From Rhizodiscina lignyota (Eukaryota), in the NCBI GenBank assembly GCA_010015805.1, contig ML978131.1, forward strand, positions 744,001 to 808,000: 64,000 nucleotides of DNA, read 5' to 3'. Shown here piece after piece: positions 28,843 to 31,525 of the stretch (positions within the stretch are counted from its first letter, which is position 1; each line of letters starts with the position of its first letter). Position numbers and translations under genes: made by a program. The notes beneath the pieces were generated by a model. That model made no database searches, was not told where the DNA came from, and saw only the letters and a program-made list of their open reading frames with translations.

Positions 28843-29419
28843 TGATATTACGAGGCAAGTAATGGCTGCGACAACACTCGCAGAACAACACGAAATTCAA
28901 AATGGTATCAAATTTTCCTGCAGTTGAGGACACGATGATATCAACTGGGCTCATCTGCATGCATGGAGTCCAATACCCTTCGTTCTAGGAAGATGAATTA
29001 CCATTGGCATGTACAATAAAAGCAAGTTAATTGTGCGTGCTACAAAATAATAAAAGCTGCATCTGCACGACATATGGTGGCGTCTATCCTTTACCCATTT
29101 TGCGGTGTCACGATGGTGTGGTCTTGATCCGGTTAGTGCGCCCGATTTCGCATACAGACGGCTTGATGATTAAGACGCCATTTGGATTTGCTTTTGGTGT
29201 TAGGCGCTTTATCTATTTATCGCGTAGCTCCTCTGCTAAGGTCTCGTGAACATCCTGCTTTCTTTTGCACCATCGCGATCTACGGGCCGAACTCCCGTTT
29301 CCAACCGGCCGAGTTCAAACTTTTCCACTACTAATAAGGTACCCACCTTTTGCGATTTTTCCACTACAACAACTCAATCTTCTCTGTAGCTCGACAGAAT
29401 CAATTCAATTCAGCGCAAA

Positions 29420-31525
29420 ATGAGCGTCCACAGCCGCCGTTCCTCGATCGGCGCCACGCCGCTAAACCCTGGCGACATCAAGCCCAACAATCCGCTCCAG
29501 GCCGACTTCGACGCCGAAGACACCAGCAGCCTGGACTCTGACGAGCGCTATTTGGTATGGCTCAGCGGGAGCTAGGAGCAGAATCTGGTCGATAGTTTGA
29601 AATCAGAGTACATCCTTCAGCGCACTCAGTGAGTAGATTAACCAGGCATCAAGTAAGCGTCATGGCACGCGGGTGTCCGCTTCAGATACCACTTGTGCTT
29701 CATTCACAGGAGCACAAGTACGGTGATGATGTCGGGCTGAGATAACACCGCTCTTGAACTTGATCGCATTCATATGCGCGGAAGGAGATGCTATGACCAA
29801 TATCGATCGATGCTACCTATCCCTCCCTTTACTTCTTCTAACAATGACAGTGAGTGCTAATAACATCCAAGCGTGCCTTGGGCTACAAGCAGGTAGGTGG
29901 GAATATCCGGTTAACCTAACAGATATACTAATCCCATGCAGTCCCTCCATCGCCAATGGAAGTTCTTTGAGAGCTTTGCAGCCAGCTTCGGTTTGTGTCG
30001 AATGTGAACAGCAATATCGATACAAATCTCTAACATTATTTAGCTGCGCTCTACTCCGTTGGTGGTATCCGAACAACTTTCACGATCGGTGTTGGGGCTG
30101 GTGGTCCGGCAGCTTACTGGTTCGGTACTCACGGGAGAAATTAACTGTACACTTGCTGACATCCATACCAGGTCAAGCTACGTGGTTACATGCATCTTCG
30201 TCTTCATCACTGCCGCTGTCCTGGCCGAGATCTGCAGTGCCCTTCCGGCAGCAGGATCAATCTACTTCTGGGCTGCTGAAGCTGGTGGACGCCGTTATGG
30301 TAGACTCTTCGGCTTCATAGTTGCATGGTGGAGCACCACTGCCTGGACGACCTTCGTTGCGAGCAACTGCCAAGCTGCTGCGAACTTTCTGCTTTCCGAG
30401 ATCACTGTCTTCAACCTGTCATTCTCCACAGACACGAACGATATCAAGTTCCGCGCCGTCCAGTGGATTGTTTCAGAGTGCTTCTTGTGCATTTCCATTG
30501 GAATGAACTATCTTGATCCAAAGACGTACAAGTATATCTTCCGGATCGCGACGTACATCATTCTGCTGGACTTTGTATTGAACATTATCTGGCTTCCAAT
30601 CGGCGTATCGAAGACTTATGGCTTCCACGATGCGAAGTATGTCTTCACGCAGACCTACAACGAGACTGGAGCGCCGCCTGTCTGGAACTGGATGCTGAGC
30701 TACTTTGTCACTGCGGGCATTCTGGTCGGCTTCGAGGCATCTGGCCACATTTCTGAGGAGACGAAGAACGCCAGTGTGACCGCAGCCAAGGGCATCTTCT
30801 GGTCCGCCGTTGCTTCCGCGGTCATCGGCTTTCCGCTGGTCATTCTCTTCCTCTTCTGTTTGCCATCTCTCGATGTCCTCTACGACCTTGATGCACCCCA
30901 GCCATTCGTTAGTATTTATGCGATGTCATTGGGGCGCGGCGGTCATATCTTCATGAACATTGTCTGCATCTTTGGCTTGATCTTCAATACCACCGTCGCA
31001 GGAGTCGCGAGCTCACGCTTGATTTGGGCAGTGGCCAGAGATGGCGTGCTCCCATTCTCAGGCTGGATCTCGGCTGTCTCCGACAAGAAAGAGCCAAAGA
31101 ACGCTATCATTGTCATGCATGCTGTTGCAGCGCTTTTGCTATGTACAATCCTGCCTTCTCCTGTCGCGTTCACTTCCCTCGTCAGCGCTGCTGGAGTTCC
31201 GACAATCACGGCGTACGCGCTCATCGCATTTGGTCGCACGTTCATTACTCCGCACAACTTCCGCCACGCTGCCTGGTCTCTGGGCCGCTGGTCTCGTCCG
31301 ATGACAGCTATTGCACTCATCTGGAACTTGTATCTGGCCGCCGTTCTCTTCTCTCCGCTCGAGTTCCCGGTCACATCGGATACGTTCAACTACTCGCCTG
31401 TCATCTTTGGCACAATCACGATCTTCGGCATTGTGACATGGTTGGTACTCCCTGAGGACAAGTGGCTCCCTGCTGCTAGGCTTGGAAAGGTGCATCAGCT
31501 TGACGATGAGTACAATGGAGCGTGA
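29420..31525 (+). CDS. APC-superfamily (ACT/GABA-permease-like) transporter, probable Thi9-like thiamine or precursor transporter
   Basis: Exon 1 is 29420-29554, followed by a 21-nt microexon 29872-29892 (RALGYKQ), two further short exons and the main exon. Motifs include LAEICSALPAAGSIYFW, GFEASGHISEET, SRLIWAVARDGVLPFS and FNY. Intron 1 contains a TPP aptamer. Confidence 0.92.
29659..29797 (+). ncRNA. TPP (thiamine pyrophosphate) riboswitch aptamer, intronic
   Basis: P1 gtcatggca/tgctatgac, P2 gcgg/ccgc, P3 gtccg/cgggc with an inserted hairpin acttgtgcttc/ggagcacaagt. Conserved CTGAGA and GAACTTGATC are present, with P5 cgca-ttcata-tgcg and GCGGAAGG. Confidence 0.93.

What the first reader, a model, noticed from the sequence alone, without database searches (positions are those of the whole stretch)
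29659..29797. Intronic TPP riboswitch in an amino-acid-permease-family gene
Seen in sequence: all aptamer elements are present (P1-P5, CTGAGA, GAACTTGATC, GCGGAAGG) inside a 317-nt first intron that is much longer than the ~50-nt introns typical here. P5 has a non-standard but fully pairing sequence (CGCA/TGCG rather than CTGG/CCAG), and P3 carries an 11-bp extra hairpin. Established: fungal TPP riboswitches control alternative splicing of NMT1/THI5, THI4 and some transporters, and S. pombe Thi9 is an APC-family thiamine transporter. Inference: this apparent GABA permease imports thiamine or a precursor, and TPP-dependent splicing inside the coding region represses it.
Basis: partly seen in the sequence, partly recalled or inferred. 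Interest (0 to 1): 0.8.

Follow-up and report, generated by a model that had tools for sequence, protein, structure and literature searches.

The report
Thiamine riboswitch in a fungal transporter intron
The first intron of a thiamine-transporter-like gene in this fungus holds a genuine vitamin-B1-sensing RNA switch that most likely turns the gene off by redirecting splicing; this kind of switch is already described in related fungi.

Summary
Window 29659-29797 (+) folds as a complete TPP aptamer inside the 317-nt intron 1 of a 544-aa APC permease. The gene's protein is identical to a Rhizodiscina lignyota protein, and relatives are named 'thiamine transporter thi9' by their sources. Rfam RF00059 scores it only 28.4 bits (gathering score 54.3), because the model cannot span the 53-nt P3 insert. 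A model built from orthologous introns scores it 109 bits. In 32 orthologous sequences 89.5% of pair cells pair, 17 of 27 pairs change on both sides, and 0 of 500 shuffles match this. 45 of 64 relatives at 55% identity or more carry the aptamer at the same place; 12 cannot be judged and 7 lack it. The expression platform is the known NMT1-type or 'Type III' design. It has a weak donor 1 (29555), an in-frame TAG (29573-29575) and a consensus donor 2 (GTGAGT, 29629). Donor 2 is masked by pairing with the aptamer's P4/P5/L5 strand in the predicted ligand-free fold. Published surveys already list this 'THI9 / TPPsw-AA' group, including its odd L5 and an instance in the dothideomycete Hortaea werneckii. 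Verdict: real, a new member of a known kind. TPP binding, thiamine-dependent splicing and the transported substrate are untested.

The parts
29420..29554 (+). Exon 1 of the permease gene (codons 1-45, ends ...ERYL)
   Evidence: Gene model; its translation equals P0001. Orthologues also end exon 1 at residue 45.
29555..29560 (+). Donor 1 (GTATGG), a weak non-consensus site; using it removes the whole 317-nt intron and gives the full ORF
   Evidence: Donor 1 is non-consensus at position +6 in all 24 orthologous introns examined.
29573..29575 (+). In-frame TAG between the two donors (premature stop after 45+6 codons if donor 2 is used)
   Evidence: Frame translation ...ERYLVWLSGS*. An in-frame stop lies before the internal donor in 23 of 24 orthologous introns.
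29613..29624 (+). Anti-aptamer segment UCCUUC-A-GCGCA, complementary to 29775-29786 (P5 3' strand, J5-4, P4 3' strand)
   Evidence: The window has 11 of 300 shuffles as good; 12 of 25 non-redundant loci pass the 5% shuffle level.
29629..29634 (+). Donor 2 (GTGAGT, consensus); pairs with AUUCAU 29768-29773 in the predicted ligand-free fold
   Evidence: Exactly one internal consensus donor lies 24-108 nt before the aptamer in 23 of 24 orthologous introns.
29646..29650 (+). GCAUC, 5' strand of a possible outer helix with GAUGC 29809-29813 that brackets P1
   Evidence: Read from the sequence. Conserved in the window's clade; L058 has GCGUC, which would still pair. Not tested statistically.
29659..29797 (+). 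TPP aptamer. P1 29659-67/29789-97; P2 29669-72,74/29747-51; P3 29675-79/29733-37 with a 53-nt insert hairpin 29680-29732; CUGAGA 29737-42; P4 29759-62/29781-84; P5 29765-68/29775-78; L5 29769-74; GCG 29778-80
29809..29813 (+). GAUGC, 3' strand of the possible outer helix
   Evidence: Read from the sequence.
29857..29871 (+). Branch-site-like CTAAT (29857-61) and the acceptor AG (29870-71) of intron 1
   Evidence: GCTAAC-type branch sites sit at the same place in orthologues.
29872..31525 (+). Rest of the gene: exons 29872-29892, 29942-29990, 30044-30119, 30172-31525 (stop TGA 31523-25)
   Evidence: identical to P0001. AA_permease_2 E = 6e-48 on the last exon.

Best explanation
This is a functional TPP riboswitch that switches the permease gene off by choosing between two 5' splice sites in intron 1.

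Low TPP (inferred): the upstream segment 29613-29634, which includes donor 2, pairs with the aptamer's P4/P5/L5 strand at 29768-29786. Donor 2 is hidden. The weak donor 1 (29555) is joined to the acceptor (29871). The whole 317-nt intron is removed and the 544-aa transporter is made.

High TPP (inferred): the ligand locks the aptamer. P4/P5 fold locally and the consensus donor 2 (29629) is freed and used. That leaves 74 nt with an in-frame TAG in the mRNA, so only a 51-residue peptide can be made and the transcript is probably degraded.

Shown here: the aptamer structure and its covariation, its conserved position, the conserved two-donor-plus-stop layout, and the predicted competing folds.

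Inferred: TPP binding, the direction of the switch, mRNA decay, and that the protein imports thiamine or a precursor.
For: Aptamer:
- The MFE fold gives the canonical junction, z = -3.74.
- On a MAFFT alignment of 32 distinct orthologous intron aptamers, 89.5% of cells pair, against 31-45% when partners are slid. 17 of 27 pairs change on both sides, and 0 of 500 shuffles reach any of the five measures.
- UGAGA, the AC of P2, GAAC, and GCG.A.G.A are invariant in that alignment.
- P5 varies in a compensatory way: CGCA/UGCG, CGCU/AGCG, CACU/AGUG, CGUC/GACG.
- The model built from that alignment scores the window 109 bits. This score is circular for the window, which is in the seed. It is not circular for loci outside the seed, such as L005, L009 and L002 (86-100 bits).

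Position:
- 45 of 64 metagenome relatives at 55% identity or more have the aptamer 5' of, or inside, the 5' part of the gene. 12 are cut off at the 5' end and 7 lack it.

Platform:
- 23 of 24 non-redundant introns have one internal consensus donor and an in-frame stop before it.
- The unconstrained MFE of 29596-29800 (-70.5 kcal/mol) is the masking fold, with GUGAGU paired to AUUCAU. The aptamer fold is -59.0 kcal/mol.
- 12 of 25 non-redundant loci show upstream complementarity to the P5-3'/P4-3' strand at the 5% shuffle level. In 11 of these 12 the partner ends within 34 nt of a donor-like site (from 1 nt past it to 34 nt before it); L031 has none listed. The partner also tracks the P5 sequence.

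Precedent (passages read):
- NMT1 and THI4 riboswitches use P4/P5 nucleotides to block a 5' splice site without TPP (PMC3597705).
- 'Type III' is an internal intron of 200-400 nt with S1, S2 and an in-frame stop (PMC5882874).
- Candida DUR31 has a premature stop between two donors and responds to thiamin (PMC5997356).
Against: - No expression data. No RNA run holds the stretch, and the one run laid is genomic DNA.
- RF00059 scores only 28.4 bits against a gathering score of 54.3.
- Inside the window's own clade the masking helices are conserved but do not covary: 1 double change, and 151 of 500 shuffles do as well.
- 13 of 25 loci showed no significant upstream complementarity in my test.
- The energy comparison ignores ligand, tertiary contacts and co-transcriptional folding.
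- L5 lacks the RUAAUR motif usual in fungal TPP aptamers (PMC11683625). One paper suggests the thi9-group aptamers may have lost function (PMC8786325).
Confidence: 0.85

Rival explanations
1. The aptamer is real and binds TPP, but it acts in another way than by unmasking donor 2. It might cause intron retention by hiding the branch site or acceptor, or it might use a long-range helix that brings donor 1 and the acceptor together, as in N. crassa NCU01977.
For: A conserved GCAUC...GAUGC pair brackets P1 (29646-50 / 29809-13). It could loop out the aptamer, as the alpha-alpha' pairing does in NCU01977 (PMC3597705 passages). 13 of 25 loci show no significant masking complementarity. In Candida DUR31, thiamin mainly raises unspliced RNA (PMC5997356 passages).
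Against: The internal consensus donor and the in-frame stop are kept in 23 of 24 introns. The window's MFE pairs that donor directly with L5/P5, which is the NMT1/THI4 signature. The two mechanisms are not mutually exclusive.
Confidence: 0.1
2. The aptamer is a decaying relic that no longer binds TPP. The long intron is then spliced constitutively.
For: The Rfam score is below the gathering score. L5 is non-standard. PMC8786325 (passages) proposes loss of function for the less conserved thi9 and nucleoside-transporter aptamers. A sub-clade (L001, L003, L006, L017, L048, L063) has changes in normally conserved positions.
Against: All ligand-contacting motifs are invariant across 32 distinct sequences. 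17 of 27 pairs show compensatory changes. This pattern indicates purifying selection on the structure and would not be expected of a relic. The low Rfam score is explained by the P3 insert: the hit starts inside it, a failure described in PMC11683625.
Confidence: 0.04
3. The resemblance to a TPP aptamer is due to chance, in an ordinary long intron.
For: Only the absence of a hit at Rfam's gathering score.
Against: as above.
Confidence: 0.01

Closest known systems
Fungal 'THI9' / 'TPPsw-AA' group of TPP riboswitches (Moldovan et al. 2018, known to me only through citing passages in PMC5997356 and PMC8786325; PMC11683625)
   Same: A TPP aptamer associated with an amino-acid-permease-family gene related to Thi9. 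The group is reported in Pezizomycotina (PMC5997356). One TPPsw-AA is reported in Hortaea werneckii (PMC11683625); a Hortaea werneckii protein (P0010) is 83% identical to the window's protein. The group is noted to lack the L5 motif RUAAUR, which matches the window's UUCAUA loop.
   Different: I found no statement about Rhizodiscina lignyota. PMC5882874 says amino-acid-transporter riboswitches are absent from Ascomycota, which these data contradict. The pairing of L5/P5 with the second donor, offered here as the reason for the odd L5, appears in none of the passages I read. I could not read Moldovan et al., so it may be described there.
Neurospora crassa NMT1 (and THI4) TPP riboswitch
   Same: Two alternative 5' splice sites upstream of the aptamer. 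P4/P5 nucleotides mask the proximal one when TPP is absent. It is a genetic OFF switch (PMC3597705 passages).
   Different: [quoted passage not shown] Here the intron interrupts the coding region, and the repressed isoform carries an in-frame stop.
'Type III' regulation of Mukherjee et al. 2018; Candida parapsilosis DUR31
   Same: An internal coding-region intron of 200-400 nt, donors S1 and S2 with an in-frame stop between them, and the acceptor after the aptamer (PMC5882874). DUR31 has a premature stop between two donors and is thiamin-responsive (PMC5997356).
   Different: DUR31 is an SSF-family transporter, unrelated to the APC family. In DUR31 the consensus site is donor 1 and donor 2 is non-consensus; here it is the reverse.
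Schizosaccharomyces pombe Thi9 thiamine transporter
   Same: [quoted passage not shown] Relatives of the window protein are named thi9 by their sources.
   Different: The window protein's substrate is unknown.

Membership tests
TPP riboswitch aptamer (Rfam RF00059) | Three-way junction: P1, a P2-P3 arm and a P4-P5 arm | tested here: met
   MFE fold. 89.5% of cells pair across 32 orthologues, against 31-45% for slid controls.
TPP riboswitch aptamer (Rfam RF00059) | Conserved ligand-sensor motifs: CUGAGA in J3-2 (pyrimidine sensor) and GCG after P5 (pyrophosphate sensor). The roles of these motifs are recalled from the published crystal structures, not from any call. | tested here: met
   Present in the window. 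UGAGA, GAAC and GCG.A.G.A are invariant in 32 sequences.
TPP riboswitch aptamer (Rfam RF00059) | Reaches the curated gathering score of the Rfam model (54.3 bits). This is a property of the model, not of the RNA. | tested here: not met
   0 hits at gathering. 28.4 bits in the permissive scan, with the alignment starting inside the 53-nt P3 insert. 8 of 14 close orthologous loci score 27.9-46.6 bits and none reaches 54.3. PMC11683625 describes this failure for long P3 stems. I still file it as a TPP aptamer on the structural and covariation evidence.
TPP riboswitch aptamer (Rfam RF00059) | Binds TPP | not testable with these tools
   Needs in-line probing or ITC.
Type III / NMT1-type splicing platform | Internal intron of 200-400 nt, with the aptamer between the alternative donors and the acceptor | tested here: met
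   Intron 29555-29871 is 317 nt. The aptamer is at 29659-29797 and the acceptor at 29870-71.
Type III / NMT1-type splicing platform | Two donors with an in-frame stop between them | tested here: met
   Window: GTATGG at 29555, TAG at 29573-75, GTGAGT at 29629. Found in 23 of 24 orthologous introns.
Type III / NMT1-type splicing platform | P4/P5 nucleotides can pair with the proximal donor region | tested here: met
   The MFE of 29596-29800 pairs 29629-34 with 29768-73 and 29613-24 with 29775-86. 12 of 25 loci are significant. In-clade covariation is not significant.
Type III / NMT1-type splicing platform | Splice-site choice changes with thiamine | not testable with these tools
   No RNA run was available.
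Thi9-type thiamine transporter | APC-superfamily amino-acid-permease fold | tested here: met
   PF13520 AA_permease_2, E = 6.3e-48.
Thi9-type thiamine transporter | Orthology to S. pombe Thi9 | not tested
   Only the source names 'Thiamine transporter thi9' on relatives at 60-61% identity (P0109, P0110).
Thi9-type thiamine transporter | Transports thiamine | not testable with these tools
   Needs uptake or complementation assays.

The most novel reading that the evidence does not exclude
In this subgroup the L5 loop and P5 stem have been reshaped to serve as the mask for the second splice donor: AUUCAU pairs with GUGAGU in the window, and CUUUCAUG with CAUGUAAG in L039. This would explain why TPPsw-AA aptamers lost the otherwise universal RUAAUR L5 motif, a point the 2024 survey left open. 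It implies that the L5-P3 tertiary contact is dispensable or rebuilt here. A sub-clade with UUGAGA and GGGC in place of CUGAGA and GAUC (L001, L003, L006, L017, L048, L063) may even have shifted its affinity or ligand preference.
Probability: 0.3. Interest if true: 0.5.

Novelty: new member of a known kind. Interest (0 to 1): 0.3.

Why it matters
The riboswitch is real but ordinary for its kind. Four points have practical value.

1. This whole orthologous subgroup falls below Rfam's gathering score: the window scores 28.4 bits and 8 close orthologous loci score 27.9-46.6 bits against 54.3. Standard annotation therefore misses it. That probably explains why one survey called amino-acid-transporter riboswitches absent from Ascomycota.

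2. The covariation shown here argues against the published suggestion that thi9-group aptamers are decaying.

3. The donor-masking pairing offers a testable reason for the group's unusual L5.

4. The riboswitch marks this 'GABA permease-like' gene as a probable thiamine or thiamine-precursor importer, which is a better functional label than the current 'putative amino acid permease'.

Tried and rejected
- **Own-genome search for other TPP riboswitches:** no genome is held for this window.
- **Expression evidence:** no RNA holder is listed. The single run laid (X1) is a near-identical genomic contig with no joints. This says nothing about expression.
- **GTGAGT at 29850 as the alternative donor:** rejected. 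It is not conserved and overlaps the branch-site region.
- **GTAAGC at 29653 as a donor:** rejected. Orthologues have GTTAAA or GTCAAA there.
- **Strict motif regex:** it found only 26 of 80 loci and missed the closest relatives, because of TTGAGA, GAAC and GGGC variants. It was replaced by a covariance model.
- **Long-duplex complementarity test:** noisy, and the script crashed midway. It was replaced by the 20-nt target test.
- **Covariation of the masking helices inside the window's clade:** not significant.
- **Moldovan et al. 2018:** not held by DOI, and no preprint was found. I have not seen what it says about THI9 beyond the citing passages.
- **Earlier notes of this scan:** none fit.
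- **Genes downstream of the 3'-located aptamers:** no conserved gene.
- **Literature search for a 3'-UTR TPP riboswitch in Aspergillus-type amino-acid transporters:** nothing beyond the papers already read.
- **Weak snoU83D hit at 29673-29706 (-), E = 4.7:** chance.

Full report
**Observation.** RNAfold of 29655-29800 returns the canonical TPP architecture as both the MFE and the centroid. It has a 9-bp P1, P2, and a P3 extended by a hairpin with an 11-bp stem. P4 and P5 close a 6-nt loop. The energy is -55.1 kcal/mol with z = -3.74, and 0 of 200 shuffles fold as well.

**Gene model.** The exon model that yields an open frame has five exons: 29420-29554, 29872-29892, 29942-29990, 30044-30119 and 30172-31525. 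Its introns are 317, 49, 53 and 52 nt. The translation is identical to P0001, a 544-aa 'putative amino acid permease' of Rhizodiscina lignyota. The last exon matches Pfam AA_permease_2 at E = 6e-48.

**Rfam.** At gathering thresholds the 64-kb window has no Rfam hit. A permissive scan of 29400-30000 gives RF00059 at 28.4 bits (gathering score 54.3), E = 0.0016. The alignment begins inside the P3 insert and deletes the true P1/P2 5' strands. Eight of 14 close orthologous loci behave the same way, at 27.9-46.6 bits, and none reaches 54.3. A 2024 survey states that RF00059 often reports truncated hits ending within P3 when P3 is long (PMC11683625, passages read).

**Comparative evidence for the aptamer.**
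- I fetched 80 metagenome loci that encode relatives of the protein.
- A MAFFT alignment of 32 distinct 5'-intronic aptamers (A2) was scored against the canonical helices mapped from the window row.
- 89.5% of 820 cells form standard pairs, against 31-45% when the 3' partners are slid by 1-3 columns. 17 of 27 pairs change on both sides. None of 500 column shuffles reaches the observed value on any of the five measures.
- UGAGA, GAAC and GCG.A.G.A are invariant.
- The 'non-standard' P5 is a subgroup trait that covaries: CGCA/UGCG, CGCU/AGCG, CACU/AGUG and CGUC/GACG.
- One clade's UUGAGA is matched by G to A on the 5' strand of P3.
- A covariance model built from A2 finds exactly one hit in the window, 29658-29800 at 109 bits. 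This is expected, because the window is in the seed.
- The same model gives strong hits on the gene's strand in 57 of 80 loci, including loci outside the seed.

**Conservation of position.** Of 64 loci at 55% identity or more:
- 45 have the aptamer 5' of, or within, the 5' part of the gene.
- 12 start inside the gene and cannot be judged.
- 7 have upstream sequence but no aptamer. L004 and L030 have coding matches with no introns at all. L026, L027, L074, L077 and L079 are relatives at 57-59% identity.

Many loci are near-duplicates, so these counts are of loci and not of species.

**Expression platform.**
- Orthologues all end exon 1 at residue 45, and a gap of 350-450 nt follows.
- In 24 non-redundant introns where the exon-1 end could be placed, 23 have exactly one internal consensus donor (GTRAGT or GTATGT), 24-108 nt before the aptamer, with an in-frame stop before it. 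L015 is the exception. Donor 1 is always non-consensus at +6.
- In the window, donor 1 is GTATGG (29555), the stop is TAG at 29573-75, and donor 2 is GTGAGT at 29629.
- Using donor 2 would retain 74 nt and end translation after 51 codons.
- The unconstrained MFE of 29596-29800 is -70.5 kcal/mol. In it UCCUUC-GCGCA (29613-24) pairs with UGCGC-GAAGGA (29775-86), and donor 2 (29629-34) pairs with AUUCAU (29768-73, the end of P5 plus L5). P2 and P3 stay folded. Enforcing P1 gives the aptamer fold at -59.0 kcal/mol.
- Across 25 non-redundant loci, the 20-nt P5-3'/P4-3' strand has a better upstream partner than 95% of dinucleotide shuffles in 12 cases. The window has 11 of 300 shuffles as good.
- In 11 of those 12 the partner ends within 34 nt of a donor-like site (from 1 nt past it to 34 nt before it); L031 has none listed. 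The partner's sequence follows P5: GCGCA(U) with (A)UGCGC, and GCGCUC with GAGCGC.
- Thirteen loci were not significant.
- Within the window's own clade the masking helices pair in 92.5% of cells but hardly vary, so they give no covariation signal.

**How this compares with known systems.** The layout is the mechanism described for N. crassa NMT1 and THI4, in which P4/P5 nucleotides block a 5' splice site when TPP is absent (PMC3597705, passages). It also fits the 'Type III' class of Mukherjee et al.: an internal intron of 200-400 nt, S1 and S2, and an in-frame stop (PMC5882874, passages). Candida DUR31 is the experimentally tested case of a coding-region intron with a stop between two donors (PMC5997356, passages).

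**What is already known about this gene group.**
- Donovan et al. write that Thi9 orthologues in Taphrinomycotina, Pezizomycotina and Basidiomycetes contain riboswitches, citing Moldovan et al. 2018. I could not read Moldovan et al..
- The 2024 survey lists a TPPsw-AA group in Ascomycota and one instance in Hortaea werneckii. It notes that TPPsw-AA lacks the L5 motif RUAAUR. A Hortaea werneckii protein (P0010) is 83% identical to the window's protein.
- Mukherjee et al. state that amino-acid-transporter riboswitches are absent from Ascomycota. The present data contradict this, probably because of detection thresholds.
- Another paper suggests the thi9 aptamers may be losing function (PMC8786325). 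The covariation found here argues otherwise.

**Function of the protein.** That it imports thiamine or a precursor is inference. The basis is the riboswitch association, the APC fold, and source names ('Thiamine transporter thi9') on relatives at 60-61% identity. I could not compare it with the S. pombe protein.

**Side finding.**
- Relatives at 44-49% identity form a second Pezizomycotina paralogue. Its closest named proteins come from Pseudogymnoascus, Rasamsonia, Paecilomyces, Aspergillus, Penicillium and Coniochaeta, and several are also named thi9.
- In 11 loci of this group a standard-P5 aptamer lies 92-153 nt after the stop codon on the same strand (stop position measured in 9 of the 11). 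Five of 6 sources scanned pass Rfam's gathering score at 56-61 bits.
- In 8 of 9 loci examined, a consensus donor lies 9-26 nt before the aptamer. Downstream there are a pyrimidine tract, a branch-like site and an AG.
- No conserved gene lies downstream.
- Annotated proteins end where the ORFs end.
- This looks like a riboswitch-bearing intron in the 3' UTR. I found no description of it in the passages read.

**Verdict.** This is a genuine TPP riboswitch with an NMT1-type, Type III splicing platform in a Thi9-like permease. It is a new member of a known kind. TPP binding, thiamine-dependent splicing and the transported substrate remain to be shown.

Noticed in passing
L040 4831-4956; L041 2878-2974; L043 4828-4938; L047 3080-3190; L051 4844-4951; L052 1900-2006; L053; L055; L056; L057 4810-4917; L059 4803-4910: A second thi9-like paralogue (44-49% identical to the window protein; closest named proteins from Pseudogymnoascus, Aspergillus, Penicillium, Paecilomyces and Rasamsonia) carries a standard TPP aptamer 92-153 nt AFTER its stop codon, on the same strand. 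A GTAAGT or GTGAGT donor lies 9-26 nt before the aptamer, and a branch site and AG follow it. No conserved downstream gene is present. It looks like a riboswitch-bearing 3'-UTR intron, reminiscent of plant THIC. I found no description of it in the passages read.
   Followed up: partly
L001 3267-3453, L003 3191-3334, L006 79-225, L017 1487-1633, L048, L063: A sub-clade of the orthologous aptamers has UUGAGA instead of CUGAGA, compensated by G to A on the P3 5' strand. It also has CUUGGGCAU instead of CUUGAUCGCA at the P4/P5 junction, which changes positions that are otherwise conserved. The effect on ligand binding is unknown.
   Followed up: partly
L004 109-1785; L030 70-1635: Two relatives (70% and 55% identity) match the protein in one uninterrupted stretch with no introns and no aptamer. 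They may be spliced transcripts or intron-less genes. If they are transcripts, they show the fully spliced, productive form.
   Followed up: no
L026, L027, L074, L077, L079: Relatives at 57-59% identity with upstream sequence (3 kb for four of them, 417 nt for L027) but no aptamer hit. Either some lineages lost the riboswitch or this is a further paralogue.
   Followed up: no
P0223 (protein hit): A basidiomycete protein with the amino-acid-permease domain PF13520, 44% identical to the paralogue, is named 'translation initiation factor 5B, partial' by its source. This may explain the 'unusual' eIF5B-associated riboswitches, one in a 3' UTR, that Mukherjee et al. report in Gloeophyllum and Postia (PMC5882874 passage).
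   Followed up: no
window 29646-29650 and 29809-29813: GCAUC and GAUGC bracket the aptamer and could extend P1 by an outer helix. They are conserved in the window's clade (L058 has GCGUC, which would still pair). The role is unknown; the helix might bring donor 2 and the branch site together when the aptamer is formed.
   Followed up: no
L033 68-247; L034 443-634: In two relatives at 55-56% identity the aptamer lies 450-1150 nt upstream of the first coding match. P5 has a different sequence and, in L033, a long insert. The layout may differ from the intron-1 arrangement.
   Followed up: no
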